Shown in pieces: positions 2,838 to 55,809 of a stretch of 64,000 nucleotides of DNA. The DNA is taken from the NCBI RefSeq assembly GCF_024502345.1, contig NZ_JALDNN010000001.1; one strand, given 5' to 3'. The DNA is from Escherichia coli. Its GTDB lineage: Bacteria > Pseudomonadota > Gammaproteobacteria > Enterobacterales > Enterobacteriaceae. The notes under the pieces are model-generated. The model saw only the letters and a program-made list of their open reading frames with translations. It was not told the DNA's origin and did no database searches. Numbering within the stretch: the first letter of the stretch is position 1; each line of letters begins with the position of its first letter. The position numbers and the translations under genes were made by a program.

Positions 2838-2877
2838 ATTTTGCTCGCCTCTGAATGAGCAGAGGCGAGTGAGTATT

Positions 2878-7092: not shown

Positions 7093-7601
7093 TACCGTTA
7101 CTCGCCTTTGCCGCGTGGAGTGGTACCGGAAAAACTACGCTTTTGAAAAAACTGATCCCGGCATTATGCGCCAGAGGGATCCGTCCAGGGCTGATTAAGC
7201 ATACGCACCATGATATGGATGTTGATAAGCCAGGCAAAGATAGCTATGAGCTGCGCAAGGCTGGCGCGGCACAAACCATCGTTGCCAGCCAGCAACGATG
7301 GGCCTTGATGACGGAAACACCAGACGAAGAAGAGCTGGATCTACAGTTTCTCGCAAGTCGAATGGATACCTCAAAGCTGGATTTGATTCTGGTCGAAGGG
7401 TTTAAGCATGAAGAGATCGCAAAGATTGTGCTGTTTCGCGATGGAGCCGGACATCGACCTGAAGAATTAGTGATAGACAGGCATGTTATTGCTGTAGCCA
7501 GTGATGTGCCGCTTAATCTTGATGTCGCATTACTGGATATTAATGATGTTGAGGGGCTGGCTGATTTTGTGGTGGAGTGGATGCAAAAGCAGAACGGATA
7601 A
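7074..7601 (+). CDS. mobB: molybdopterin-guanine dinucleotide biosynthesis adapter MobB
   Basis: 175 aa with Walker A motif (GTGKTT); overlaps the mobA 3' end. Confidence 0.9.
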
Positions 7602-7912: not shown

Positions 7913-10817
<2,905 letters not shown>

Positions 10818-11000
10818 TCACAACCCGAAGATGTTTCTTGCGATCCATCATCGTGTTGCGAAAATTTGAGAGACTCACGAACAACTTTCGTTGTTCAGTG
10901 TTTCAATTTTCAGCTTGATCCAGATTTTTAAAGAGCAAAACTTCGCAGTGAACCTTTTCAGGTACACTCTGAAGTATTTTTTATTTAATCACTACAGAGA

Positions 11001-11076
11001 TGGTGGAGCTATGCGGGATCGAACCGCAGACCTCCTGCGTGCAAAGCAGGCGCTCTCCCAGCTGAGCTATAGCCCC
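11001..11076 (-). tRNA. alaT: tRNA-Ala (UGC), spacer tRNA
   Basis: Reverse complement GGGGCTATAGCTCAGCTGGGAGAGCGCCTGCTTTGCACGCAGGAGGTCTGCGGTTCGATCCCGCATAGCTCCACCA. Confidence 0.95.
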
Positions 11077-11118
11077 ATAACATGTAGTTAAAACCTCTTC
11101 AAATTTGCCGTGCAAATT

Positions 11119-11195
<77 letters not shown>

Positions 11196-11263
11196 GTAGA
11201 GGTTTTACTGCTCATTTTCATCAGACAATCTGTGTGAGCACTGCAAAGAACGCTTCTTTAAGG

Positions 11264-12805
<1,542 letters not shown>

Positions 12806-12976
12806 AAGTTTGATGCTCAAAGAATTAAACTTCGTAATGAATTACGTGTTCACTCTTGAGACTTGGTATTCATTTTTCGTCTTGCGACGTTAAGAATCCG
12901 TATCTTCGAGTGCCCACACAGATTGTCTGATAAATTGTTAAAGAGCAGTGCCGCTTCGCTTTTTCTCAGCGGCGCG

Positions 12977-13131
12977 GGGTGTGCATAATACGCTTTCCCG
13001 CCACAGAGTCAAGCATTTATTTTTGCTTTCTCTGTTGAGATTCTCAGGAGAACCCCGCTGACCCGGCGGCGTGTTTGCCGTTGTTCCGTGTCAGTGGTGG
13101 CGCATTATAGGGAGTTATTCCGGCCTGACAA
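12977..13131 (-). promoter_or_regulatory. tandem rRNA promoters P1 and P2
   Basis: On the minus strand: P1 -35 TTGTCA (13126-13131) and -10 TATAAT (13104-13109) with a 16-bp spacer; P2 -35 TTGACT (13007-13012) and -10 TATTAT (12985-12990). Confidence 0.8.
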
Positions 13132-13180
13132 GAGGAAATTTAAAATAATTTTCTGACCGCGCATTTTTTATTCTTTATGC

Positions 13181-13726
13181 TTATTTCAGCGTCGGTTTGT
13201 CGGTTAAATGGGCGATTTCTCGGGCGAAATTCGCCACCTGCTCCCAATCGGTATAGACAACTTCTTTGCGCGTATCCGTTTCACCGCCTGACATCTTCAT
13301 AATCAGCTTGATCATAAAACGGTCGTACCAGCGATAACGTGGGTAACGCAGCGCCCCGGCAATGACCGCGCAGCGATCGGGACGCCATTGCGAGTTCATC
13401 AGAAACTTCCGCGCGTAGCTGTTGGTCTGTGGAGTACGCTTCTCCGGTTTGCGCGCCACCAGGTTTACGGAATAAAAGGCGCTCGGCATCGAATTCAGTC
13501 GCGTCGCATGTTTTTTGACAAATTCCTGGAACGCAGAGTGGTAGTGACCATAGCGAATAGAAGCACCAATGACCACACGGTCATAATTTTCCCATTGTGG
13601 TTCTTCAATGCGGTGCACATTGGCGACATCCGTCTGGATCCCCAGTTCTTTCAGTTCCGAAGCCAGGTAGGAGGCAATCTCGCGCGTTTGTCCGTCCCTT
13701 GTTGAGAAAAGAATTAATGTTTTCAC
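13181..13726 (-). CDS. hemG: protoporphyrinogen oxidase HemG (flavodoxin-like)
   Basis: 181 aa; flavodoxin-like N-terminus [14 protein letters not shown]. Confidence 0.9.
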
Positions 13727-13737
13727 GTATTACTCCA

Positions 13738-15189
13738 TCATTCACGCCAGAAAGTCGGGGTAAAGAGCACCAGCAATGTAAAGACCTCGAGACGACCAAA
13801 CAGCATGTTGGCAATCAGGATCCATTTAGCCACCGGGTTCATACTGGTAAAGTTATCAGCAACCACGCCAAGCCCTGGCCCCAGGTTATTCAATGTCGCA
13901 ACAACTGAGGCAAAGGCAGAAAAATCATCCACGCCCGTGGCGATAATCGCCAGCATACTGACAATAAACACCAATGCATAGGCGGAGAAAAATCCCCAAA
14001 CGGCTTCGAGGATACGTTCCGGCAGTGCGCGATTCCCCAGCTTAATGCTATAGACGGCGTTCGGATGCACCAGTCGTTTCAGCTCACGGTTCCCCTGCTT
14101 AAACAGCAGCAGGATGCGGATCACTTTCAGGCCACCGCCCGTTGATCCGGCGCAACCGCCGATAAAAGCTGAACATAAAAGCAGTACCGGCAAAAAGAGC
14201 GGCCAGCGGGCAATGCTGTCAGTCGTAAACCCGGCGGTTGTCGCCATCGATACCACCTGGAAAAACGCCTGGTTAATTGTCATCAGCGCCGAACTGTAGA
14301 CATTATGAAACCACAGTACGAGTGTACAAATAACCACCAGCGTAAACTGTACGCCGATAAACATGCGAAATTCCGGATCGCGCCAATAAACCTTCAGACT
14401 ACGCCCACTTAACAGTGAAAAGTGCAGACCGTAGTTACAGCCGGAGATCAGCAGGAAGATAGCAATGATAGTGTTAATAGTCGGGCTGTCGAAATAACCG
14501 ATACTGGCATCATGTGTCGAGAAGCCGCCAATAGCGATAGTCGCAAAGCTATGGCCGATGGCATCAAAGGCATCCATTCCGGCAAACCACAACGCCAGCG
14601 CACAGGCGACGGTCAGCAAGACATAAATCAACCACAGGGTTTTCGCCGTTTCCGCAATTCGCGGGCGCATTTTGTTATCTTTCAGCGGGCCGGGCATTTC
14701 TGCGCGATAGAGCTGCATCCCACCCACGCCGAGGATAGGCAGTATCGCAACCGCTAACACGATGATCCCCATCCCGCCAAACCATTGCAGCATCTGGCGA
14801 TAAAAGAGGATGGCATGAGGGAGCGAATCCAGCCCCACCAGCGTAGTGGCCCCGGTGGTGGTCAGGCCAGAGAAAGATTCAAAAAACGCATCGGTAATCG
14901 TGAGGTTCGGGCTTTCCGAGAAGATAAAAGGGAGCGCACCGACACTACCCAGCACGGTCCAGAACAGCACCACTATCAGAAACCCCTCACGGGATTTCAG
15001 TTCGCCCTTCTCTTTACGGTTCGGCCACCACAGCATAGAACCAATGGCGAGGGCGACAAAAAAGGTCTGGGTAAAAGCGCGGCCCGCTCCATCCCGGTAG
15101 ATGAGTGCTACCAGCCCAGGGATAATCATGGTCCCTGAAAATAAGATGACCAGTAGTCCAACGATTCGGGTAATGGCGCGAAAATGCAT
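13738..15189 (-). CDS. trkH: potassium uptake protein TrkH
   Basis: 483-aa polytopic membrane protein; synteny with hemG and pepQ. Confidence 0.9.
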   Translation of the reverse strand: MHFRAITRIVGLLVILFSGTMIIPGLVALIYRDGAGRAFTQTFFVALAIGSMLWWPNRKEKGELKSREGFLIVVLFWTVLGSVGALPFIFSESPNLTITDAFFESFSGLTTTGATTLVGLDSLPHAILFYRQMLQWFGGMGIIVLAVAILPILGVGGMQLYRAEMPGPLKDNKMRPRIAETAKTLWLIYVLLTVACALALWFAGMDAFDAIGHSFATIAIGGFSTHDASIGYFDSPTINTIIAIFLLISGCNYGLHFSLLSGRSLKVYWRDPEFRMFIGVQFTLVVICTLVLWFHNVYSSALMTINQAFFQVVSMATTAGFTTDSIARWPLFLPVLLLCSAFIGGCAGSTGGGLKVIRILLLFKQGNRELKRLVHPNAVYSIKLGNRALPERILEAVWGFFSAYALVFIVSMLAIIATGVDDFSAFASVVATLNNLGPGLGVVADNFTSMNPVAKWILIANMLFGRLEVFTLLVLFTPTFWRE

Positions 15190-15227
15190 CTCTGCCGCTT
15201 CCTTAGTTCTGCAAAACGAAGTGGGGA

Positions 15228-15842
15228 TTATTCTTCAATCGCTAACAATTGCAATGAACCACGGCTAAAATCCGCCAGCTTTGCGGAAAATTCAGCCACT
15301 TTCGCCGCCGGAAGCGCCACCCGCAGCAGAACGAATGCCTGATAATCACTGTTGATAATTTTGCCGTCACACTGCCCCAGCAACGCTTCAATGCCGGTTA
15401 ACTGATGATATTCACATTGCAAAGTATATTCGGTTAATGGCGTCTTGCGTTGGGTCGTTAGCTGGCGCAGCGCCTGATTCACGCCGCCGCCATACGCTTT
15501 CACTAACCCACCGGTGCCAAGCAATATGCCGCCGTAGTAGCGCACTACCACAGCGGTAATTTCCCCGACGCCGCTGCCCATTAGCTGGGCGAGCATCGGT
15601 TTACCTGCCGTTCCTGCCGGCTCCCCGTCGTCAGAGAAACCCAGCTGTTGAGAATCATCCGGCGCACCCGCCACCCACGCCACGCAATGGTGGCGGGCAT
15701 CGGGGTGTTCTGCCCGCACCGATTCAACAAACGCTTTCGCCGCCTCAACGCCATCGGTATGCGCCAACATCGTTATGAAGCGGCTTTTTTTGATCTCTTC
15801 AACGACCGTGACCGGTGCCGCAGGAATTAACCAGCTTTCCAT
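15228..15842 (-). CDS. yigZ: IMPACT-family protein YigZ
   Basis: ORF 15228..15845; the likely start is [10 protein letters not shown] at 15842, overlapping the pepQ stop. Confidence 0.85.
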   Translation of the reverse strand: MESWLIPAAPVTVVEEIKKSRFITMLAHTDGVEAAKAFVESVRAEHPDARHHCVAWVAGAPDDSQQLGFSDDGEPAGTAGKPMLAQLMGSGVGEITAVVVRYYGGILLGTGGLVKAYGGGVNQALRQLTTQRKTPLTEYTLQCEYHQLTGIEALLGQCDGKIINSDYQAFVLLRVALPAAKVAEFSAKLADFSRGSLQLLAIEE

Positions 15843-21663: not shown

Positions 21664-23157
21664 TCAGGCGCTTTTACCGTTGTTAAAAATAGCCAGTTCA
21701 TCCCAGATGGCGTCAATATGCGCGACAACATCTGGATCTTTTTTGATGGGACGTCCCCATTCACGCTGGGTTTCCCCCGGCCATTTATTCGTGGCATCCA
21801 GCCCCATTTTTGAACCCAGCCCGGAGACAGGCGAGGCAAAATCCAGATAATCAATAGGCGTATTTTCTACCAGAACAGTATCCCGCGCCGGGTCCATACG
21901 GGTGGTAATCGCCCAAATCACATCGTTCCAGTCGCGTGCGTTGACGTCATCATCGCAAACGATCACAAATTTAGTGTACATAAACTGGCGTAAGAACGAC
22001 CAGACGCCCATCATGACGCGCTTCGCGTGTCCGGCGTACTGTTTTTTGATCGTCACTACCGCCAGACGATAAGAACAGCCTTCCGGCGGCAGGTAAAAAT
22101 CGACAATTTCCGGGAACTGTTTTTGCAGAATCGGTACAAACACTTCGTTCAACGCCACGCCCAGTACCGCGGGCTCATCTGGCGGACGCCCGGTATAGGT
22201 GGAATGGTAAATCGCATCTTCACGCTGGGTAATATGCGTCACGGTAAATACCGGGAAACTATCGACTTCGTTATAGTAACCGGTGTGGTCGCCATACGGC
22301 CCTTCCGGCGCCGTTTCACCTTGTTCGATATACCCTTCCAGCACAATCTCCGCACTGGCGGGCACTTCAAGGTCATTGGAGATACACTTCACCACTTCGG
22401 TCTTGGTACCGCGCAGCAATCCGGCAAACGCATACTCTGAAAGTGTATCCGGAACGGGGGTGACTGCACCGAGAATCGTGGCGGGATCGGCACCCAGCGC
22501 CACAGAAACCGGGAAACGTTCGCCCGGATGCGCCGCACACCACTCCTGATAATCCAGCGCGCCGCCGCGATGCGACAGCCAGCGCATAATCAGTTTGTTT
22601 TTACCAATCAGCTGCTGGCGATAAATGCCCAGATTCTGCCGCTCTTTATGCGGGCCGCGCGTCACTGTCAGCCCCCAGGTAATCAGCGGCGCGGCATCTT
22701 CCGGCCAGCAGGTCATAATGGGAATGCGATTGAGATCGACGTCATCGCCAGAGACGATTTTTTGTTGGCAGGGCGCACCACGCAGCCGCTTTGTCGGCAT
22801 GTTCAATACTTGCTTAAACTGCGGCAGTTTATCAAACAGGTCGCGGAAACCTTTTGGCGGCTCCGGCTCTTTCAGAAACGCCAATAATTTACCAACTTCA
22901 CGCAGCGCCGAAACATCTTCCTGCCCCATGCCCATCGCCACGCGCTTTGGCGTACCGAACAGGTTGCACAGCACCGGCATTGAGTAGCCTTTAGGGTTTT
23001 CGAACAACAGCGCAGGCCCACCGGCACGCAAAGTGCGGTCAGCAATTTCAGTGATTTCCAGATGCGGATCCACCGGGAGCGTGATACGTTTTAGCTCACC
23101 CTGCAGTTCAAGCAGCGTCAAGAAGTCGCGTAAATCGTTATATTTCATGGCGTCCAT
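21664..23157 (-). CDS. ubiD: 3-octaprenyl-4-hydroxybenzoate decarboxylase UbiD
   Basis: 497 aa; synteny. Confidence 0.9.
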
Positions 23158-23278
23158 TGTAGCCTCTTAATCTACGCCCATTATACGGCGTTCATCTTTG
23201 CGATGCTGTAAATTTGTTAAATTAGCGTGAACTCTGACGGTATAACGCAAACCGGGGAATATAATTAACTTAGCGTAA

Positions 23279-24591
<1,313 letters not shown>

Positions 24592-24632
24592 CCTGTACTC
24601 CATATGACAACCGCCCTGACGGGCGGTTGAAT

Positions 24633-25409
24633 TTATTCTTCAGTTTTTTCGCTTTCTGCTTCAGCGTCGTTTTCCTCTTCCCGATTTCGCCCTTTACCAA
24701 CGTAAAAGCGTGAGAAGAAGACACCGATTTCAAACAGACAGTACATCGGGATCGCCAACAGCGTTTGCGAGAAGACATCCGGCGGCGTCAGCAACATCCC
24801 GACAACGAATGCACCAACCAGCACATACGGGCGTTTTTTGCGTAAGTCTTCTGGCGAGGTAATCCCCATCCAGCACAGCAGCACTATTGCCACAGGCACT
24901 TCAAAGGAGACACCAAACGCCATAAACAACGCCATAACGAAGCTTAAATAACTGGCGATGTCGGTGGATACCTGTACCCCTTCCGGCGCGGTATTGGCAA
25001 GGAAGCCAAATGCCAGCGGAAAGACCACAAAGTAGGCGAACGCCATACCGATATAAAACAGCAGAGAGCTGGAAACCAGCAGCGGCACCACCAGGCGACG
25101 CTCATGCTTATACAGCGCTGGGGCGATAAATGCCCACACCTGATAGAGAATCACCGGCGCTGACAGAATCAGCGACACCATAAAGGTCAGTTTGATCGGC
25201 GTAAAGAACGGCGAGGCCACGTCGGTGGCGATCATCGTTGAACCTTGCGGCAACTGCTTGATCAATGGCGCGGATACCAGGTGATAGATGTCATTGGCGA
25301 AATAGACCAGACACAGGAATATCACGATCACCGCGATAATGCAGTTCAGCAGACGCTTACGCAGCTCAATCAGATGCGTGATAAGCGGTTGAGTATCTTC
25401 TACAGACAT
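24633..25409 (-). CDS. tatC: twin-arginine translocase subunit TatC
   Basis: 258-aa polytopic membrane protein. Confidence 0.95.
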
Positions 25410-25411
25410 GT

Positions 25412-25927
25412 TTACGGTTTATCACTCGACGAAGGGGAAGGTGCAGCGGTTTTCGGTTCAGCGTCCGCAGCAGGTTTTACCACCGGCTCTGGCGTGGTTT
25501 CTGGCTTCTGTTCCGGCGAACTGGCCTGCGTTTGTGCAGCGGCAGGCGTTACGCCTTCATGCGCAGCTTCATTGTCTTTCACCACCGGGTTATGGATGGT
25601 GTGCGCTTCATCGCTCGCCTTTTCAGGATCGTTTGCAACGTAGGAACGCTTCATCGACTCCGCGGCCTGGCGTAATTCATCCATCGACGCTTTCAGTTCG
25701 GGCGTCAGGTTAGTGAGGCTCGCCTTTTCAACCTTTTTCAGACTGTCCTGAAACTCCTGGAGTTTTAACTCCTGGGTCAGTTCGTTCTGCACCGTTGTCG
25801 CCAGTGAACGCAACGCGCGAATCCAGCCCGCTACCGTTTTTACCGCCACAGGCAGTCGTTGCGGCCCCAGAACGACGAGGCCGATGATGAACACCAATAG
25901 CAGTTCGCTAAAACCGATATCAAACAC
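25412..25927 (-). CDS. tatB: twin-arginine translocase subunit TatB
   Basis: 171 aa, begins [26 protein letters not shown]. Confidence 0.95.
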
Positions 25928-25930
25928 GGA

Positions 25931-26200
25931 TTACACCTGCTCTTTATCGTGGCGCTTCGCGTCTTCTGTTTTAGCCTGTTCCTGATTCGTATCCGCCTGC
26001 TTATCGGCGATAGTTTTCGCAGTAAAATCAGCATCCTGACTGGTTTTATCCTGCTTTGGTTCATCATCGCTCATTGCTTTTTTAAAGCCTTTGATCGACG
26101 CACCAAGATCGGAACCGATGGAGCCGAGCTTTTTGGTGCCAAAAAGCAGTACAACGATGACGGCAATAATCAATAACTGCCAAATACTGATACCACCCAT
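25931..26200 (-). CDS. tatA: twin-arginine translocase subunit TatA
   Basis: ORF 25931..26242; the start is [16 protein letters not shown] at 26200 (89 aa). Confidence 0.95.
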
Positions 26201-26278
26201 ACATGTTCCTCTGTGGTAGATGATGATTAAACAAAGCCGCATTATACGTTACACGGCCCGCCTTGAGCGATGAAAAAA

Positions 26279-28521
<2,243 letters not shown>

Positions 28522-31975: not shown

Positions 31976-32788
31976 ATGGCAACAACACAACAATCTGGAT
32001 TTGCACCTGCTGCATCGCCTCTCGCTTCGACCATCGTTCAGACCCCGGACGACGCGATTGTGGCGGGCTTCACCTCTATCCCTTCACAAGGGGATAACAT
32101 GCCTGCTTACCATGCCAGACCAAAGCAAAGCGATGGCCCACTGCCAGTGGTCATTGTAGTGCAGGAAATTTTTGGCGTGCATGAACATATCCGCGACATT
32201 TGTCGCCGTCTGGCGCTGGAGGGGTATCTGGCTATCGCACCTGAACTTTACTTCCGCGAAGGCGATCCGAATGATTTTGCCGATATCCCCACGTTGCTTA
32301 GCGGTCTGGTAGCAAAAGTGCCTGACTCGCAGGTGCTGGCCGATCTCGATCATGTCGCCAGTTGGGCTTCCCGCAACGGCGGCGATGTTCATCGTTTAAT
32401 GATCACCGGATTCTGCTGGGGTGGACGTATCACCTGGCTGTATGCCGCGCATAATCCACAGCTAAAAGCCGCAGTGGCGTGGTACGGCAAACTGACGGGC
32501 GACAAGTCGTTGAATTCACCGAAACAACCTGTTGATATCGCAACCGATCTTAACGCGCCGGTTCTCGGCTTATATGGCGGTCTGGATAACAGTATTCCGC
32601 AGGAGAGCGTTGAAACCATGCGCCAGGCGCTGCGGGCTGCTAATGCGAAAGCAGAGATTATCGTGTACCCGGATGCCGGGCATGCATTCAACGCTGATTA
32701 TCGCCCGAGCTATCATGCCGAATCTGCGAAAGATGGCTGGCAGCGTATGCTGGAATGGTTTAAGCAGTATGGTGGGAAGCGGAGTTAG
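31976..32788 (+). CDS. ysgA: dienelactone hydrolase-family protein YsgA
   Basis: ORF 31910..32788; the start is MATTQQSGF at 31976; alpha/beta hydrolase motif GFCWGG. Confidence 0.85.
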   Translation: MATTQQSGFAPAASPLASTIVQTPDDAIVAGFTSIPSQGDNMPAYHARPKQSDGPLPVVIVVQEIFGVHEHIRDICRRLALEGYLAIAPELYFREGDPNDFADIPTLLSGLVAKVPDSQVLADLDHVASWASRNGGDVHRLMITGFCWGGRITWLYAAHNPQLKAAVAWYGKLTGDKSLNSPKQPVDIATDLNAPVLGLYGGLDNSIPQESVETMRQALRAANAKAEIIVYPDAGHAFNADYRPSYHAESAKDGWQRMLEWFKQYGGKRS

Positions 32789-33181
32789 TTTCCTCTTAGT
32801 CTATATTTGAGATGGTGAGTGAACGAGTGCGTTTTGCTGCCATCTCTGTCCCCCAAAAAATAATCAGTATGAATTGATTGGAGATTACGACTCCGCTATT
32901 TGACCTTAAAAAAGTCGGCAAGTCATAGTCATAAATGAGTCTCTTCAATGGAAGACACCTTAGAGATTTACCATCAACTCCCATTCACAAACAAACATTA
33001 ATTATTATCAACACATTCACATTAATTATAAATCATCTCAGACCTTCCTGATAAAAAGATATTAAAGTGAAACATTTTGTTTTTCACATTTTAGTTCATC
33101 ACTTTTAGGCGTAAATAAAGGTAAAAAAAACAACAATACTATTTCTCTTTCACAAAAGAATTAACAAAAGGTTTTTCAAGG

Positions 33182-33657
33182 ATGAGTGATATTATTTACC
33201 TGACCATAACCGGAGAACAACAAGGATGTATTTCCTCTCGTTGTGGAACGAGCGCATCAATAGGTAATCGCTGGCAGATTGGCCATGATGATGAAATCTT
33301 CGCGTTCTCGCTCTCTAATAGTATTACGAATACAGGCAAAGGGTCATAATTGCATGGCCTTAGTTTCTGTAAATTGATTGACAAAAGCTCCCCGTTACTT
33401 ATTAACGCTATTAACAATAACGAGCAGTTGTTCATGGAGTTTGACTTCTATCGGATCAATAGGTTTGGTCGATGGGAGAAATATTACAACATTCAACTCC
33501 GCGGCGCGCTCTTATCAGCAATCAATCACCTGTTTACTGAGAACAATCTGGATACAGAAGCCATCACTGTCAGTTATGAATATATACTCTCCAGGCATCT
33601 GATTGCTAATACTGAATTTAGTTATTTGGCATTTCCCGATAACTACAACCGTCTGTT
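33182..33657 (+). pseudogene. Hcp-family (T6SS tube protein) domain, N-terminal part of a disrupted Hcp-fused toxin gene
   Basis: ATG at 33182 gives MSDIIYLTITGEQQG...; the frame hits TAA at 33347-33349 and resumes in the same frame with the Hcp-like stretch FCKLIDKSSPLL. The reading frame then runs into the IS903 end at 33658. Confidence 0.7.
33649..33657. repeat. IS903 target-site duplication, left copy (CCGTCTGTT)
   Basis: The identical 9-mer recurs at 34715-34723, immediately outside the two inverted repeats. Confidence 0.9.
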
Positions 33658-34714
33658 GGCTTTGTTGAATAAATCGAACTTTTGCTGAGTTGAAGGATCA
33701 GATCACGTATCTTCCCGACAACGCAGACCGTTCCGTGGCAAAGCAAAAGTTCAAAATCACCAACTGGCCCACCTACAATAAAGCCCTCATCAACCGTGGC
33801 TCCATAACTTTCTGGCTGGATGATGAAGCTATTCAGGCCTGGTATGAGTCAGCAACACCTTCTTCACGAGGCAGACCTCAGCGCTATTCTGACCTTGCCA
33901 TCACGACTGTGCTGGTCATTAAACGCGTATTCAGGCTGACCCTGCGCGCTGCGCAGGGCTTTATTGATTCCATTTTTTCTCTGATGAACGTTCCGCTACG
34001 CTGCCCGGATTACAGCTGTGTCAGCAGGCGGGCAAAGTCGGTTAATGTCAGTTTCAAAACGCCCACCCGGGGTGAAATCGCACACCTGGTAATTGATTCC
34101 ACCGGGCTGAAGGTCTTCGGTGAAGGCGAGTGGAAAGTCAAAAAGCATGGCCAGGAACGCCGCCGTATCTGGCGTAAGCTGCATCTCGCCGTTGACAGTA
34201 AAACACATGAAATCATCTGCGCTGACCTGTCGCTGAACAACGTTACGGACTCAGAGGCCTTCCCCGGGTTAATCCGGCAAACCCACCGGAAAATCAGGTC
34301 AGCCGCCGCCGATGGCGCTTACGATACCCGGCTATGTCACGATGAACTGCGGCGTAAGAAAATCAGCGCGCTTATCCCTCCCCGAAAAGGTGCGGGTTAC
34401 TGGCCCGGTGAATATGCAGACCGTAACCGTGCAGTGGCTAATCAGCGAATGACCGGGAGTAATGCGCGGTGGAAATGGACAACAGATTACAACCGTCGCT
34501 CGATAGCGGAAACGGCGATGTACCGGGTAAAACAGCTGTTCGGGGGTTCACTGACACTGCGTGACTACGATGGTCAGGTTGCAGAGGCTATGGCCCTGGT
34601 ACGAGCGCTGAACAAAATGACGAAAGCAGGTATGCCTGAAAGCGTGCGTATTGCCTGAAAACACAACCCGCTACGGGGGAGACTTACCCGAAATCTGATT
34701 TATTCAACAAAGCC
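33658..34714 (+). mobile_element. IS903-type insertion sequence (IS5 family), 1057 bp
   Basis: Terminal 18-bp inverted repeats GGCTTTGTTGAATAAATC (33658-33675, and reverse complement at 34697-34714); internal 322-aa ORF; flanked by a 9-bp direct repeat. Confidence 0.9.
33690..34658 (+). CDS. IS903-type DDE transposase
   Basis: 322-aa ORF matching my recollection of the IS903/IS102 transposase. Confidence 0.85.
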   Translation: MKDQITYLPDNADRSVAKQKFKITNWPTYNKALINRGSITFWLDDEAIQAWYESATPSSRGRPQRYSDLAITTVLVIKRVFRLTLRAAQGFIDSIFSLMNVPLRCPDYSCVSRRAKSVNVSFKTPTRGEIAHLVIDSTGLKVFGEGEWKVKKHGQERRRIWRKLHLAVDSKTHEIICADLSLNNVTDSEAFPGLIRQTHRKIRSAAADGAYDTRLCHDELRRKKISALIPPRKGAGYWPGEYADRNRAVANQRMTGSNARWKWTTDYNRRSIAETAMYRVKQLFGGSLTLRDYDGQVAEAMALVRALNKMTKAGMPESVRIA

Positions 34715-34723
34715 CCGTCTGTT
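34715..34723. repeat. IS903 target-site duplication, right copy (CCGTCTGTT)
   Basis: Exact 9-bp match to 33649-33657. Confidence 0.9.
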
Positions 34724-34753
34724 TATACCACGGCCAAAAACTAAAGCTGGTAA

Positions 34754-35395
34754 TGGTTCAAAACACTTAATAGTAAAGCGGTTGGCAGACTGCTTGCTGC
34801 TGGCGGCATATACAATGGGAATATCGAAGGATTCAGGGAAACAGCAGACAAGTTGGGGGGAGATGCACCTGCTGGTTACGATCAATTTATGGATAACAAA
34901 GGGTTACTCATCGCTGGTGCTTCAATAGTTGCTGGAGCAGTTCTGGGGAGAATGAGACTCCCTGATTTGGAATCACTTGAGCATTTCGGAGCCAGAGGAG
35001 CAGTATCAGGAAGACCATTTAATCCCGACCTTGCCGGTGGTCCAATAGAAAATCTGACGACAGATGGCGTAACAATCAACAGGGAAGGTATCGCTATTGT
35101 TGAAAAACACATAGCCAGATTTGGTCATGACCCTGTAAATGAAGTGATGATCAATAGACTGAAAGACATTGAGAAAGGAAAAATCCCCCCAGAACAAGTA
35201 GATCTTAACTTCTATACTCATGAGTGTCGGGAATATCAGCGTTACTGTAATCTTGGTTGGGAAACAGGACAACCTGATGGTGACGCAGGCTATGCACTCT
35301 GGAATCATACGCATACTGCTACTCTAGAAGATTATAAACTTAAGGGAGAACTTAATGACTTATACCACCAGGATGCACTTGACTATGATAACTGA
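34754..35395 (+). pseudogene. toxin-like C-terminal domain of the disrupted Hcp-fused gene (family not identified)
   Basis: Open frame of 213 codons after a stop at 34751; no ATG near its 5' end (the ORF track uses TTG at 34853). It begins with a Gly/Ala-rich linker (GRLLAAGGIYNGNIEGF...DKLGGDAPAGYDQF). It is in a different frame from the pre-insertion Hcp frame. Confidence 0.5.
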
Positions 35396-35630
35396 AACTG
35401 AAATTAACGTACTGAAAGTTATGGCTGAGAAAGATATAAACTGGAACTGGATGAATCTCGATCGCACACTATCCATAAGGCAAATTCCAGGATTCGGTAA
35501 TGTTGTTAACATTGTTAACAAATTAGCTAACGAGGGTTTGGTTATTATTGAGGATAGCGGACATAAGTCTATGCCTCACTACCACGTTACTGAAAAGGGA
35601 TACAATTTCGTGAAAAGTGAGAATAAATAA
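35355..35630 (+). CDS. putative cognate immunity protein (small cytoplasmic protein)
   Basis: 91-aa ORF with AAGGGAGAA Shine-Dalgarno 6 bp upstream of the ATG at 35355; overlaps the 3' end of the toxin-like ORF (alternative ATG at 35385 overlaps its TGA). Confidence 0.5.
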   Translation: MTYTTRMHLTMITETEINVLKVMAEKDINWNWMNLDRTLSIRQIPGFGNVVNIVNKLANEGLVIIEDSGHKSMPHYHVTEKGYNFVKSENK

Positions 35631-35777
35631 CGTAGCGTTGATTACTGAACAAATCGCTCAGGATTATATTTTGCGTAAAAATGATTCGGTTATTTCTGTA
35701 TCTGAACGGGCGCAGATAGCAAAATGGCTTCCGGTGATGGAAGCCATCAGATTATTGGCAAAGTGCGCGTTGTTCAT

Positions 35778-35818
35778 GCCGGATGCGGCGTGAACGCCTT
35801 GTCCGGCCAACAAAACTC
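35778..35818. repeat. REP element
   Basis: gccggatgcggcgtgaacgccttgtccggcc. Confidence 0.7.
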
Positions 35819-35914
35819 AAAAATTCAATAAATTGCATAAATTATGTAGGCCTGGTATCAGGCAGTTTTGCCTCTTTCATCGTACTGCAATTTACAGTGA
35901 CTCGTTAATATTCA

Positions 35915-38176
35915 TCATCCCCGACGCAAATTCTGCGCCGCCTGCACCATGTTCGCCAGTGCCGCGCGGGTTTCTGGCCAGCCGCGCGTTTTCAGGCCAC
36001 AGTCCGGGTTGACCCACAGGCGCTCTGCCGGAATGCGTTTTGCCGCTTTCTTCAGCAAGGCTTCAATCCATTCCACGCTCGGTACGTTTGGCGAGTGAAT
36101 GTCATAGACGCCTGGACCGATTTCATTCGGATAATCAAACTCTTCAAACGACTCCAGCAACTCCATGTCGGAACGCGAGGTTTCGATGGTGATGACGTCT
36201 GCATCCAGTGCCGCAATCGAATCCATGATGTCGTTGAACTCGCAATAACACATGTGAGTGTGGATTTGTGTGTCATCTTTCGCCACGGCGGCGTTGATAC
36301 GGAAGGCCTCCACGCCCCACTGGAGATATGCATCCCAGTCGCTACGACGCAGCGGTAAACCTTCGCGCAGCGCCGGTTCATCAATCTGGATGATGCCAAT
36401 TCCTGCGGCTTCCAGGTCCGCCACTTCATCACGCAGCGCCAGCGCAATTTGTTTGGCGATGGTTTCACGGCTGACATCTTCACGCGGGAACGACCAGCAG
36501 AGAATGGTCACCGGGCCAGTCAGCATCCCTTTCACCGGTTTATCAGTCAGAGATTGCGCATACTTCGCCCACTCCACGGTAATCGGTGCCGGGCGGCTAA
36601 TGTCACCAATGACAATCGGTGGCTTCACGCAGCGGGAACCGTAGCTCTGTACCCAACCGTTTTGCGTAAAGACAAATCCGTCGAGGTGCTCGCCAAAGTA
36701 TTCCACCATGTCATTACGCTCGGCCTCGCCATGTACCAGCACATCCAGTCCCAAACGTTCCTGTTCAACAATGGCCTGCTTGATATGTTCCGCAATGCCC
36801 GTGCGGTAGTTGTTGGCGTCGAGATTACCCTTTTTGAAATCCAGACGCAGGGTACGAATTTCCGTGGTTTGCGGGAAGGAACCAATCGTGGTGGTCGGCC
36901 ACGCTGGCAGTTTAAAACGCGCACGCTGGGCTTCGGCACGCACTTCATAGACATTCGCACGCTGGCTGTCCTGGGCGGTGATCGCCGCCAGACGCTTTTC
37001 TACTGCCGGGTTATGTACACGAGTAGAGTGACGACGCGCCTGAATTGGAGCGCTCCACTCTGCCAGAGCTGCCGTATCACCACTGTTCAGCGCATCTCGC
37101 AGCAGTGCCAGTTCATGACATTTTTGCAGGGCGAAGGCAAACCAGCTTTTCACTTCTGCATCAAGACGCGTTTCCACGCTCAGGTCGATGGGGCTGTGCA
37201 GCAACGAGCAGGAAGATGCCACCCACAAATCACGTTTGCCGACAATGTCCTTAATTTGCGCATATTTCTCAGTAAGATCGGCGCGCCAGACGTTACGACC
37301 ATTGATCAGACCCGCAGACAGCAGCCAGTCAGAAGGCAGGCGCTTGTGCAGTTCAACAACGTCATCTTTACCATGTACAAGGTCCACATGCAGCCCCTGA
37401 ACAGGCAGCGCAGTAATCGTGTCGAGATTTGGCGTTACGCCTTCAAAATAGGTGGTCAGCAGCAGTTTCACCTGTCCCTGGAGCGCGTCGTAAGCGGGTT
37501 TGTATGCGTCCAGCCACGCCTGTGGTAGTTCCAGTACCAGCGCGGGTTCATCAATCTGTACCCACTCGATGCCGCGTTTCGCCAGTTCTGCCAGCACTTG
37601 CTGATAAACCGGCAGAATGTCGTTCAGCAGGCTAAGGCGGTCAAACTGTTCACCTTTCACTTTCCCCAGCCACAGGTAAGTAACCGGCCCCAGCAGCACA
37701 GGCTTAACGTTGTGGCCCAGCGCCAGCGCCTCGTCCACTTCCTCCAGCAGCTGCGTCCAGGTCAGTTTGAACTGTTGGCCTTTAACGAACTCCGGCACCA
37801 TGTAGTGATAGTTGGTGTTAAACCATTTGGTCATTTCCGCTGCCGCCGCAGGTTCGCCAGTCGGCGCACGTCCACGACCAATACGGAACAGGGTGTCGAT
37901 ATCTACCGAACCGTCTTTGTTCTGATGACGTGGCGGAACATTACCCAGCAGCAAACTGGTGGTCAGTACATGATCGTACCAGGCAAAATCGCCCACCGGC
38001 AGCAGGTCGATACCCGCTTGCTTTTGTTGATCCCAGTGACGAGCACGCAGTTCACGCCCTACTGTCAGCAGTTCTTCACGCGTGGAGTTCCCCGCCCAAT
38101 AACTTTCTTGCGCTTTTTTCAGCTCGCGACGCAGGCCAACGCGAGGGAAACCGAGGGTGTGATTCAATATTGTCAT
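35915..38176 (-). CDS. metE: cobalamin-independent methionine synthase
   Basis: 753 aa, begins [30 protein letters not shown]. Confidence 0.95.
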
Positions 38177-51374: not shown

Positions 51375-51415
51375 AAATAAGCCGGATAAAAAAATAGCTT
51401 TATCCGGCACTCATA

Positions 51416-53539: not shown

Positions 53540-53646
<107 letters not shown>

Positions 53647-55809
53647 TTACACCGACTCCAGCCGGGCATAAGCCGCCACCAGCCATTTAATACCCTGGCC
53701 CTGAAATGCCACCTGCAAACGGCTATGCTCACCGCTGCCTTCCATATTGACAATGGTGCCTTCACCAAACTTAGCGTGGCGTACGCGCTGGCCGAGCTTG
53801 TAGCCGCTGTCGTTCTCGACCATCGGCGTACCCATCCGTTGATGGCTGACCGGGCGGCTTACCGTGGCGCGCAGGCGCACCTCTTCCACACACTCTTCCG
53901 GCAGCTCGCCGATAAAGCGCGACGGGCGATGGTAAACCTCTTTGCCATACAGACGGCGAGTTTCCGCGTAGGTCAGCGTCAGTTTCTGCATCGCGCGGGT
54001 TACGCCAACGTAGGCCAGACGGCGTTCTTCTTCCAGACGCCCGCCTTCATCCAGCGACATCTGGCTTGGGAACATGCCCTCTTCCATACCGACGATAAAC
54101 ACCTGCGGGAACTCCAGACCTTTCGCCGAGTGCATGGTCATCAGTTGTACCGCATCCTGCCAGGTATCCGCCTGCCCTTCGCCTGCTTCCAGCGCCGCAT
54201 GGGATAGGAACGCCTGCAGCGGCATTAAATCTTCGTCTTCTTCGTTGTAGCTGAACTGGCGCGTTGCCGTCACCAGTTCCTCTAAGTTTTCGATACGCGT
54301 CTGACCTTTTTCGCCCTTCTCCTGCTCGTACATGGTACGCAGGCCGGAGTCTTTAATTACCCGGTCAGTCTGTACATGCAGCGGCATATCGGCAGTTTCC
54401 TGCGCTAAGGCGTCGATCAGTTCCATAAACCGCTGTAAGGCGCTGGCAGCACGTCCGGCGAGGGCTTTTTCCTGCAACAGTTCACGACATGCCTGCCAGA
54501 GTGTTAACTGGCGATCGCGCGATGTCTGACGTACCACGTCCAGCGTCCGGTCACCAATACCCCGCGTTGGCGTATTCACCACACGCTCAAAGGCCGCGTC
54601 GTCGTTACGGTTGGCAATCAGGCGCAGATACGAGAGCGCATCTTTGATTTCCTGGCGTTCGAAGAAGCGCATCCCGCCGTAAATACGGTACGGCATACTC
54701 GCCTGCAACAGTGCTTCTTCCAGCACACGCGACTGGGCGTTACTGCGGTAGAGAATGGCGCACTCGGCAAGCGCCCCGCCGTTGTCCTGCCAGGTTTTGA
54801 TGCGGTTAACCACAAAACGCGCTTCATCGAGTTCGTTAAAAGCGCAATAGAGGGAAATAGGCTCACCGTCCGCGCCATCGGTCCACAGTTTTTTACCCAG
54901 ACGCCCGTTATTGTTTTCAATCAGGGCGTTAGCGGCGCTCAGAATATTGCTGGTAGAGCGGTAGTTTTGCTCCAGACGAATAGTTTCGGCACCGGGGAAA
55001 TCATTAAGGAAACGCTGAATATTCTCCACCTGCGCCCCGCGCCAGCCGTAGATTGACTGGTCGTCATCACCGACGATCATCACTTTGCCGGTGTCGCCCG
55101 CCAGCAGGCGGATCCACGCGTACTGAATGTTGTTGGTATCCTGGAATTCGTCCACCAGGATATTGGTAAAACGTTCGCGGTAGTGTTGTAGGATATGCGG
55201 CTTGTTAAGCCACAGTTCGTGAGCGCGCAGCAGCAGCTCGGCGAAGTCCACCAGGCCCGCGCGGTCACACGCTTCCTGATACGCCTGATACACCTTCTGC
55301 CAGGTCTGCTCCACCGGATTACCGTAGCTTTGAATATGATGCGGACGCAGGCCTTCATCTTTCTGGCTGTTGATGTACCACATTGCCTGGCGCGGCGGCC
55401 ACTGCTTCTCGTCGAGGTTCATGGCTTTGATCAGACGCTTAAGCAGGCGTAGCTGGTCTTCACTGTCGAGGATCTGGAAATCCTGCGGTAGATTGGCGTC
55501 CATATGGTGCGCACGCAGCAAACGGTGCGCCAGCCCGTGGAAGGTGCCGACCCACATGCCGCCCTGGCTGGTGCCCATCAGTTGCCCGATACGATGACGC
55601 ATCTCCGCCGCCGCTTTGTTGGTAAACGTCACAGCCATAATCGAGTATGGCGAGCAGTTTTCCACGCTCATCAGCCAGGCGATACGATGCACCAGTACGC
55701 GCGTCTTACCACTGCCCGCGCCCGCCAGCACCAGAAGGTTGCTGCGTGGCGCGGCCACCGCTTCGCGCTGTTTGTCATTAAGGCTGTCGAGCAGGTAAGA
55801 AACGTCCAT
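53647..55809 (-). CDS. uvrD: DNA helicase II (UvrD)
   Basis: ORF 53647..55998; the real start is MDVSYLLDSLNDKQREAV at 55809 (720 aa); Walker A GAGSGKT. Confidence 0.95.
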   Translation of the reverse strand: MDVSYLLDSLNDKQREAVAAPRSNLLVLAGAGSGKTRVLVHRIAWLMSVENCSPYSIMAVTFTNKAAAEMRHRIGQLMGTSQGGMWVGTFHGLAHRLLRAHHMDANLPQDFQILDSEDQLRLLKRLIKAMNLDEKQWPPRQAMWYINSQKDEGLRPHHIQSYGNPVEQTWQKVYQAYQEACDRAGLVDFAELLLRAHELWLNKPHILQHYRERFTNILVDEFQDTNNIQYAWIRLLAGDTGKVMIVGDDDQSIYGWRGAQVENIQRFLNDFPGAETIRLEQNYRSTSNILSAANALIENNNGRLGKKLWTDGADGEPISLYCAFNELDEARFVVNRIKTWQDNGGALAECAILYRSNAQSRVLEEALLQASMPYRIYGGMRFFERQEIKDALSYLRLIANRNDDAAFERVVNTPTRGIGDRTLDVVRQTSRDRQLTLWQACRELLQEKALAGRAASALQRFMELIDALAQETADMPLHVQTDRVIKDSGLRTMYEQEKGEKGQTRIENLEELVTATRQFSYNEEDEDLMPLQAFLSHAALEAGEGQADTWQDAVQLMTMHSAKGLEFPQVFIVGMEEGMFPSQMSLDEGGRLEEERRLAYVGVTRAMQKLTLTYAETRRLYGKEVYHRPSRFIGELPEECVEEVRLRATVSRPVSHQRMGTPMVENDSGYKLGQRVRHAKFGEGTIVNMEGSGEHSRLQVAFQGQGIKWLVAAYARLESV

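What the first reader, a model, noticed from the sequence alone, without database searches (positions are those of the whole stretch)
35638..35790. Short coding-like remnant with a hairpin between the immunity ORF and metE
A ~50-codon frame from TTG at 35638 reads LITEQIAQDYILRKNDSVISVSERAQIAKWLPVMEAIRLLAK... and runs into the REP element. It contains a perfect hairpin atggcttcc-ggtg-atggaagccat at 35726-35749. It may be the 3' stump of a further orphan gene or a small regulatory structure.
Basis: seen in the sequence. Interest (0 to 1): 0.3.

Follow-up and report, generated by a model that had tools for sequence, protein, structure and literature searches.

The report
Spurious ORF over metE terminator hairpin
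The "coding-like remnant" is a chance open frame across three unrelated pieces of non-coding DNA, and its hairpin is most likely the ordinary transcription terminator of the neighbouring metE gene.

Summary
The ORF (TTG 35638 to TGA 35793) and the hairpin are real. The window is E. coli, at the hypervariable ysgA-metE spot.

The ORF is not a gene. It crosses three segments of separate origin:
- 35631-35692: the non-coding tail of the Hcp-toxin/immunity module.
- 35693-35747: a metE-proximal segment shared with strains that carry a different island.
- 35748-35879: a REP/BIME-type repeat absent from other lineages. It encodes the last 16 codons and the stop.

Strains 97% identical carry a +1 frameshift that gives TGA after 15 codons. 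B2 strains have further indels. Searches of 5.8 billion and 1.84 billion proteins found only the ORF itself.

The hairpin has a 9-bp stem. Together with the adjacent GCAAAA (UUUUGC on the metE strand) it is invariant across eight haplotypes, while the loop and the 5' flank vary. It scores as an intrinsic terminator only on the metE strand. In strains without the BIME it sits about 45 nt after the metE stop, replacing the different terminator of K-12.

Only 13 nt (35693-35705) match a gene end, that of a LysR regulator gene. The finding is ordinary and of low interest.

The parts
35385..35630 (+). Immunity-type small ORF (81 aa as called by PGAP; 91 aa from ATG 35355) that ends the Hcp-toxin module. 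It forms the left border of the interval.
   Evidence: Homologous copy in B2 strains. Only weak sub-threshold winged-helix Pfam hits.
35638..35793 (+). Judged spurious.
   Evidence: No homologues; +1 frameshift in L009 and L006; a different N-terminus and C-terminus in B2; closed by TAA in type-1 strains.
35631..35692 (.). Non-coding 62-nt tail of the Hcp-toxin/immunity module. It is the right end of the 7.5-kb insertion seen in B2 strains.
   Evidence: 848 of 5426 genomes, always one copy; always immunity gene, then tail, then hairpin, then metE.
35693..35723 (.). Start of the metE-proximal segment shared by all island types. 35693-35705 (tttctgtatctga) corresponds to the last 13 nt, including TGA, of the LysR-family CDS in type-1 strains. 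The rest is a divergent spacer with a 12-13-nt deletion in this lineage.
35724..35747 (-). Terminator stem-loop with a 9-bp perfect stem and a 6-nt loop. On the minus (metE) strand it is followed by UUUGCUAUCU (35723 down to 35714).
   Evidence: d = +3.9 on the minus strand, -34.6 on the plus strand; stem and GCAAAA invariant in 8 haplotypes.
35748..35879 (.). BIME/RIP-like repeat inserted between the hairpin and the metE 3' flank. It comprises a left extension, a REP (about 35777-35811), an AT-rich linker with an IHF-like motif (about 35820-35838) and an internally deleted second REP (35846-35863). It encodes the last 16 codons and the stop of the ORF.
   Evidence: searches (111 nt repeated; matches in 5425 of 5426 genomes, median 9 places; absent in B2; naRNA4 32.9 bits, ES036 25.2 bits, both below gathering), (aligned to the pitA-uspB copy; terminator-like site 35850-35863 on the + strand).
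35880..35914 (-). metE-proximal 3' untranslated flank shared by all island-bearing types.
35915..38176 (-). metE (cobalamin-independent methionine synthase). The stop codon is at 35915-35917. This is the gene the hairpin is proposed to terminate.

Best explanation
The interval is non-coding 3' flank shared by two convergent transcription units: the Hcp-toxin/immunity module on the + strand and metE on the - strand.

The hairpin at 35724-35747, read on the minus strand, is followed by UUUUGC. It is the Rho-independent terminator of metE in E. coli lineages that carry an island between ysgA and metE. In those lineages the island displaced the bidirectional ysgA/metE terminator found in K-12. In this lineage a BIME-type REP repeat later inserted between the metE stop and the hairpin. 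The metE 3' UTR therefore runs as stop, 35 nt, BIME, terminator.

The 52-codon frame is a chance open frame. It is stitched from the module tail, the terminator region and the BIME.

Shown here: the mosaic structure, the lack of frame conservation, the lack of homologues, the conservation pattern and the strand-specific terminator score. Inferred: that transcription actually stops there.
For: 1. Mosaic structure. Window versus B2 strains shows homology from the immunity gene through the hairpin, then a 132-nt insertion in the window only. The inserted element aligns over its whole length to a repeat between pitA and uspB, and matches to it occur at a median of 9 places per genome. Type-1 strains (LysR, hairpin, metE; 363 genomes) share only the part from TTTCTG rightwards (82% over 82 nt). 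The B2 arrangement equals type 1 plus a clean 7,508-bp insertion 13 nt before the LysR stop.
2. Not coding. Only self-hits in 5.8 billion proteins and in a full HMMER scan of 1.84 billion representatives. Nothing in plasmids or phages and no Pfam family. L009 and L006 (97% identical) have +1 A, giving TGA after 15 codons. B2 has frame-breaking indels upstream and a different C-terminus. In type 1 the frame has TAA six codons before the hairpin.
3. Terminator. The hairpin dG is about -13 to -15 kcal/mol. The d'Aubenton-Carafa score is +3.6 to +8.5 on the metE strand in all four haplotypes, against -12 to -35 on the other strand. The K-12 metE/ysgA terminator scores about +10.
4. Position. In B2 and type-1 strains the hairpin begins about 45 nt after the metE stop. 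K-12 has a different hairpin in the same place.
5. Conservation. GCAAAA and both stem arms are invariant in 8 haplotypes, 3 of 6 loop positions vary, and the 5' flank is full of substitutions and indels.
6. Convergence. The same hairpin sequence occurs in Vibrio penaeicida and Ferruginibacter, right after stop codons and followed by T-runs.
Against: - The U-tract is short (UUUU, then GCUAUCU) and the score is only marginally positive.
- The window's own consensus scan did not flag the hairpin on the minus strand.
- The stem never varies, so there is no covariation evidence.
- No transcript 3'-end data were available for a strain carrying this hairpin.
- In this lineage the BIME lies upstream of the hairpin on the metE transcript. 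It could itself stop or stabilise the RNA, making the hairpin partly redundant.
- The segment KNDSVIS...AKWLPV(M/L)EAI stays open in all Hcp-module variants, and the net indel there is 12 nt, which is in frame. That has a 1-in-3 chance. The amino acids between the two conserved nucleotide blocks are not conserved.
Confidence: 0.8

Rival explanations
1. The frame is the stump, or a still-functional small remnant, of a further orphan toxin, immunity or other gene at the end of the Hcp-toxin array.
For: - PGAP annotates a 40-aa hypothetical protein here in identical strains.
- The block KNDSVIS...AKWLPV(M/L)EAI stays open in the window-type and B2-type variants.
- Orphan immunity genes are known in Hcp-ET loci (PMC6730261).
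- 13 nt do match the 3' end of a LysR CDS.
Against: - No homologue in any database searched.
- The N-terminal third is frameshifted in 97%-identical strains and in B2.
- The C-terminal 16 codons and the stop come from a BIME insertion absent elsewhere.
- Residues between the conserved nucleotide blocks are unconserved.
- In type-1 strains the hairpin is conserved but the frame is closed.
- The LysR-matching 13 nt are in a different frame from the ORF.
Confidence: 0.05
2. The hairpin is a bidirectional terminator or 3'-end stabiliser that mainly serves the + strand unit: the Hcp-toxin/immunity genes here, and the LysR gene in type-1 strains.
For: - The hairpin lies 94 nt after the immunity stop, and 30-35 nt after the LysR stop in type 1.
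- Convergent gene pairs often share one terminator, as K-12 ysgA/metE does.
- The hairpin is as stable on the + strand.
Against: - On the + strand the stem is followed by CAGAUUAUUGG (window) or UAUCGUACUG (B2 and type 1).
- T-scores there are 1.2-2.4 and d is -12 to -35, well below the K-12 control.
- The conserved A-run lies on the 5' side for the + strand, which is the U-tract for the - strand.
Confidence: 0.12
3. The palindrome acts at the DNA level. It could be a protein-binding site or a recombination and insertion hotspot that marks where island modules and BIMEs are joined next to metE.
For: - In some B2 strains it is a perfect 24-bp palindrome, or 26 bp with the flanking A and T (ATGGCTTCCAGTACTGGAAGCCAT).
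- The BIME is inserted exactly at its 3' edge. The pitA-uspB copy of the same repeat also abuts a hairpin.
- Different modules end about 30-45 nt from it.
Against: - It is single-copy in every genome.
- No terminal repeats flank the 7.5-kb insertion.
- REP/BIME elements are generally found beside terminators in 3' UTRs (established knowledge), so adjacency needs no special mechanism.
- No candidate binding protein was identified.
Confidence: 0.03

Closest known systems
The ysgA/metE bidirectional intrinsic terminator of E. coli K-12 (AAAAGACCGGGTGG-TATTA-CCACCCGGTTTGGATTTT)
   Same: It has the same position, immediately downstream of the metE stop between convergent genes. It is a similar short GC-rich hairpin with a similar modest score on the metE strand (d about +10 against +4 to +8).
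   Different: The sequence is unrelated. The K-12 hairpin scores as a terminator in both directions, while this one scores only on the metE strand. This one belongs to island-bearing lineages: 848 + 363 of 5426 genomes.
BIME/RIP (REP-IHF-REP) extragenic repeats of E. coli
   Same: 35748-35879 has a canonical REP, an AT-rich linker with an IHF-like motif (AATTCAATAAATTG) and a second inverted REP. It is multi-copy and extragenic, and it lies in a 3' UTR next to a terminator.
   Different: The second REP is internally deleted relative to the pitA-uspB copy. IHF binding was not tested. The BIME-1/RIP class was assigned from memory of the literature, not from an annotated reference.
Spurious 'hypothetical protein' ORFs that read through REP sequences (typical ...MPDAA or ...CRMRRERLIRP translations)
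   Same: The ORF ends ...CALFMPDAA*, encoded by GCCGGATGCGGCGTGA of the REP. It is annotated by PGAP only where the frame happens to be open.
   Different: None of substance. This instance also runs across a terminator hairpin.
Orphan immunity genes and gene stumps downstream of Hcp-ET (Hcp with C-terminal toxin) T6SS effectors (Ma et al. 2017, as reviewed in PMC6730261)
   Same: The locus is an Hcp-toxin plus immunity module. In B2 strains the homologue of this immunity gene is the second immunity-type gene after another toxin/immunity pair and looks orphan.
   Different: The stretch under study is not such a gene. It has no protein homology and no conserved frame.

Membership tests
Rho-independent (intrinsic) terminator | Stable GC-containing stem-loop (5-14 bp stem, 3-8 nt loop) | tested here: met
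   9-bp perfect stem (5 G-C pairs), 6-nt loop, dG -13 to -15 kcal/mol.
Rho-independent (intrinsic) terminator | U-rich tract immediately 3' of the stem on the transcribed strand | tested here: met
   Minus strand: UUUUGCUAUCU, T-score 3.5, d = +3.9 (window) and +3.6 to +8.5 in other haplotypes. This is marginal but comparable to the K-12 metE terminator at +10. Plus strand: d -12 to -35, not met. The simple consensus scan did not list the hairpin.
Rho-independent (intrinsic) terminator | Lies shortly downstream of the stop codon of a gene on the same strand | tested here: met
   The hairpin begins about 45 nt after the metE stop in B2 and type-1 strains, and 167 nt after it here because of the BIME insertion.
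Rho-independent (intrinsic) terminator | Transcripts actually end at the U-tract | not testable with these tools
   No Term-seq or RNA-seq data were available for island-bearing strains.
Protein-coding gene or gene stump (orphan toxin/immunity) | Detectable homologues, or a longer intact relative | tested here: not met
   Only self-hits (P0001, P0002) in 5.8 billion and 1.84 billion protein sets. Nothing significant in plasmids or phages, and no Pfam family.
Protein-coding gene or gene stump (orphan toxin/immunity) | Reading frame preserved among related sequences | tested here: not met
   +1 frameshift and TGA in L009 and L006; indels and a different C-terminus in B2; TAA in type 1.
Protein-coding gene or gene stump (orphan toxin/immunity) | ORF lies within one evolutionary unit | tested here: not met
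   It spans the module tail, the metE-proximal segment and the BIME insertion.
REP/BIME repeat | REP consensus palindrome, multi-copy and extragenic | tested here: met
   35777-35811 matches K-12 REPs at 85-91% identity. naRNA4 (REP-derived) hit at 32.9 bits, E 5e-4, below gathering. Matches in 5425 of 5426 genomes, median 9 places.
REP/BIME repeat | Two inverted REPs separated by a linker with an IHF site (BIME-1/RIP) | tested here: inconclusive
   The linker and second REP align to the pitA-uspB copy, but the second REP is internally deleted. The IHF motif has one mismatch to WATCAANNNNTTR on direct reading of the sequence. Binding is not testable here.
3' stump of the LysR-family regulator gene of the type-1 island | Sequence collinear with the 3' end of the intact CDS | tested here: met
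   11 of 13 nt match (tttctgtatctga against tttctgttcctga), followed by a homologous spacer and the hairpin. It is only 13 nt. The LysR gene has three alternative 3' ends breaking at this point, so which is ancestral is unresolved.

The most novel reading that the evidence does not exclude
In the O121/O145/PCN033-type lineage, a young lineage-specific micro-ORF of 40-52 aa was created de novo by fusion of an island tail, a terminator hairpin and a BIME insertion. It has an AGGA 7 nt upstream of the PGAP start TTG 35671. It would be translated from read-through of the immunity transcript, making it a proto-gene born partly from a REP element.
Probability: 0.03. Interest if true: 0.35.

Novelty: new member of a known kind. 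Interest (0 to 1): 0.08.

Why it matters
It matters little biologically. The result removes a false lead and flags a RefSeq 'hypothetical protein' (WP_001230617.1 type) as a probable annotation artefact that reads through a terminator and a REP. The modest points of interest are these:
- metE uses different, unrelated terminators in different E. coli lineages, because islands at the ysgA-metE hotspot replaced the K-12 one.
- The interval records the layered history of that hotspot: module insertion, a 13-nt LysR end, then a BIME insertion.

Tried and rejected
- Protein homology. I ran a word-indexed search of 5.8 billion proteins, a full HMMER scan of 1.84 billion representatives, tblastn against plasmids and phages and Pfam. 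They returned only self-hits or noise (E of 5-8).
- LysR C-terminal stump. I briefly considered that the whole ORF might be a diverged LysR C-terminal helix ('AQDYILRKN' against 'CMEYLRN'). I rejected this because blastn shows homology to the LysR locus starting only at TTTCTG, 13 nt before the stop, and HMMER found no LysR hit.
- Rfam. All hits were sub-threshold and REP-related (naRNA4, ES036) or noise (STnc100 at 17.5 bits, snoRNAs).
- Hairpin in other species. The scan of GTDB representative genomes found two E. coli genomes plus two unrelated terminators, in Vibrio and Ferruginibacter. I take those as convergence, not homology.
- Module tail in another context. The metagenome scan of a 22-mer gave 11 contigs, all with the same B2-type E. 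coli context.
- Terminal repeats of the 7.5-kb insertion. None was significant.
- K-12 RefSeq repeat annotation. The feature table carried no REP or BIME features, so the class was inferred by alignment.

Full report
**Where we are.** The window is Escherichia coli. The interval 35600-35920 is 100% identical to E. coli O121 str. RM8352, and the full-length stretch occurs in 113 of 5,426 complete genomes. The interval lies between an Hcp-toxin/immunity module on the + strand and metE on the - strand (35915-38176, stop codon 35915-17), with metR beyond it. The Hcp-toxin gene is tssD with a C-terminal toxin domain that PGAP names 'colicin'. In K-12, ysgA and metE are convergent and separated by only 38 bp, which form a bidirectional terminator hairpin. 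In this window that spacer, including the stop codons on both sides, is replaced by an island.

**Observation check.**
- The ORF exists as described (TTG 35638 to TGA 35791-93).
- PGAP annotates a 40-aa version (35671-35793) in identical strains.
It has a 9-bp perfect stem (atggcttcc/ggaagccat) and a 6-nt loop.
- The fold is better than shuffles (z -3.3 and -3.8 for the 51-nt context).
- Perfect 9-bp hairpins are about three times more frequent in the window than in Markov simulations: 6 distinct loci, counted as 8 overlapping hits, against about 2 hits.

**Anatomy: a mosaic of three origins.** Comparison with other E. coli shows at least four states of the ysgA-metE spot.
- Type 0 is K-12.
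- Type 1 (L012 XDL, L007 E69; 363 genomes with full coverage) has an eight-gene module, from a cysteine hydrolase gene to a LysR-family regulator gene. It is followed by about 30-35 nt, the same hairpin, about 45 nt, and metE.
- Type 2 (B2 strains such as UTI89 and SF-166; 735 genomes at about 74% identity to the window stretch) equals type 1 plus a clean 7,508-bp insertion placed 13 nt before the LysR stop. The insertion carries MurR/RpiR, tkt, ptsG, hxlB, the Hcp-toxin gene and two immunity-type genes (L012 1-9197 / 9198-15691 against L011 5001-14197 / 21706-28197).
- Type 3 is the window, with only the Hcp-toxin module between ysgA and the hairpin (L009 is the version uninterrupted by the IS).

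The finding therefore decomposes as follows:
- 35631-35692 is the non-coding tail of the Hcp module. It is always single-copy and always in the order immunity gene, tail, hairpin, metE. A metagenome scan of a 22-mer from the tail gave 11 contigs, all in that context.
- 35693-35747 is the metE-proximal segment common to types 1-3. Its first 13 nt (tttctgtatctga) correspond to the last 13 nt of the type-1 LysR CDS (tttctgttcctga).
- 35748-35879 is a 132-nt insertion absent from B2 and type-1 strains.

The insertion aligns along its whole length to a repeat between pitA and uspB. It contains a canonical REP (about 35777-35811), an AT-rich linker and an internally deleted second REP. It gives sub-threshold Rfam hits to REP-derived families (naRNA4 at 32.9 bits, ES036 at 25.2 bits). 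Matches to it occur in 5,425 of 5,426 genomes, at a median of 9 places per genome. From my knowledge of the literature this is a BIME-1/RIP-type element. That class assignment was not tested against an annotated reference, because the K-12 feature table held no repeat features.

**The ORF is not a gene.**
- It spans all three segments. Its last 16 codons (IRLLAKCALFMPDAA plus the stop) are encoded by the BIME, and ...MPDAA* is the classic reading of GCCGGATGCGGCGTGA.
- L009 and L006, 97% identical, have one extra A (gcgaaaaaaatg against gcgtaaaaatg). This puts TGA after 15 codons, and PGAP calls nothing there.
- B2 strains have further indels that shift the N-terminal third and give another C-terminus. 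In type 1 the frame through the hairpin is closed by TAA six codons upstream.
- One block (KNDSVIS...AKWLPV[M/L]EAI) remains open in types 2 and 3 because a 13-nt and a 1-nt indel net to 12 nt. However, the residues between the two conserved nucleotide blocks are unrelated (VSE-RAQI against APEDQLQSGTH). Conservation is therefore at the nucleotide level, not the protein level.
- The database searches returned only the ORF itself. These were the 5.8-billion set (two clusters, both the same E. coli ORF) and the full HMMER scan of 1.84 billion representatives (one hit, itself). Plasmids and phages gave noise at E 5-8, and Pfam gave nothing.

**The hairpin is best read as the metE terminator.**
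- On the minus strand the stem is followed by UUUUGCUAUCU.
- I reimplemented the d'Aubenton-Carafa score with ViennaRNA energies. It gives d = +3.9 for the window, +3.6 for B2 and +8.5 for type 1 on the metE strand. On the + strand it gives -34.6, -12.9 and -12.4.
- The K-12 ysgA/metE terminator scores +10.0 and +10.8.
- In B2 and type-1 strains the hairpin is the first stable structure downstream of metE, beginning about 45 nt after the stop.
- Across eight haplotypes, GCAAAA (UUUUGC on the metE strand) and both stem arms are invariant. Three of six loop positions vary (GGTGAT, AGTGCT, AGTACT, GGTGTT), and the flank on the far side is riddled with substitutions and indels.
- The same hairpin sequence turns up in Vibrio penaeicida and a Ferruginibacter MAG, directly after stop codons and followed by runs of T. 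These look like textbook terminators that arose by convergence.

The caveats are these:
- The U-tract is short and the score marginal.
- The simple consensus scan did not list the hairpin.
- The stem shows no covariation because it never varies.
- I had no transcript-end data.

In this lineage the BIME lies upstream of the hairpin on the metE transcript, the usual place for REP/BIME elements. On the + strand its degenerate second REP plus AGTTTTGCC is the only terminator-like site the scan reported (35850-35863). It may therefore help to end the immunity transcript.

The 'stump of a further orphan gene' is not supported. The only gene-derived piece is 13 nt matching a LysR CDS end, in another frame. 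Even its polarity (stump or fusion) is unresolved, because the LysR gene has three alternative 3' ends that break at the same point, including one on plasmid pSCZP1. The 'small regulatory structure' is supported in the mundane sense of a transcription terminator.

**Novelty and interest.** This is an ordinary intrinsic terminator, an ordinary BIME insertion and a spurious ORF, so interest is low. The one mildly instructive point is that metE has lineage-specific, non-homologous terminators, because island traffic at the ysgA-metE hotspot replaced the K-12 one.

Noticed in passing
window 33658-34715 (IS); 33182-33688 (Hcp part); 34853-35395 (toxin part): An IS5-family insertion sequence (transposase 33690-34658, NF033579 at 357 bits) splits the Hcp-toxin (tssD-ET) gene relative to the intact copy in L009. 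The Hcp domain also carries an internal stop near 33347-33349. The effector is therefore a pseudogene while its immunity gene (35385-35630) stays intact. RM8352 itself lacks this IS.
   Followed up: partly
window 32780-35915; loci L004, L012, L011, L009: The ysgA-metE interval is a hypervariable hotspot with at least four states: the K-12 38-bp terminator, an 8-gene module ending in LysR, that module plus a clean 7,508-bp insertion (MurR/tkt/ptsG/hxlB plus the Hcp-toxin gene and two immunity-type genes), and the Hcp-toxin module alone. No terminal repeats were found at the 7.5-kb insertion.
   Followed up: partly
L012 9197/9198; L011 14197/14198; L015 about 9195: The LysR-family regulator gene has three different 3' ends (897, 906 and 891 nt) that diverge at the same nucleotide, in chromosome type 1, chromosome type 2 and plasmid pSCZP1. 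The right edge of the 8-gene module therefore lies inside the last few codons, and the flanking DNA supplies the stop.
   Followed up: partly
window 35747/35748; L014 about 1500: The left end of the BIME-like repeat (TCAGATTRTTGRCAWAGTGCGC...) abuts a terminator-type hairpin both here and in the pitA-uspB copy (GCGGGTCAGCTGGCCCGC|TTCAGATT). This hints that the repeat inserts at, or is retained next to, hairpin edges.
   Followed up: no
window 53540-53660: There is another, more diverged copy of the REP-linker-REP repeat in the same window (76-92% identity over parts).
   Followed up: no
L005 5841-5866 (Vibrio penaeicida); L008 2731-2756 (Ferruginibacter MAG): The hairpin motif AAATGGCTTCCNGTNNTGGAAGCCAT recurs in unrelated bacteria as canonical terminators, each after a stop codon and followed by T-runs. 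This is sequence convergence of terminator hairpins.
   Followed up: yes
window 35702-35715 and 35762-35776: GAACGGGCGCA and TGCGCGTTGTTC form an imperfect inverted repeat that brackets the hairpin in the predicted fold of either strand. One arm is in the lineage-specific spacer and the other is in the BIME left extension. It is probably fortuitous.
   Followed up: no
window 2844-2869, 7276-7301, 11100-11120, 24608-24629, 51382-51407: These are the other perfect 9-bp-stem hairpins in the window, presumably further terminators. I did not examine them.
   Followed up: no
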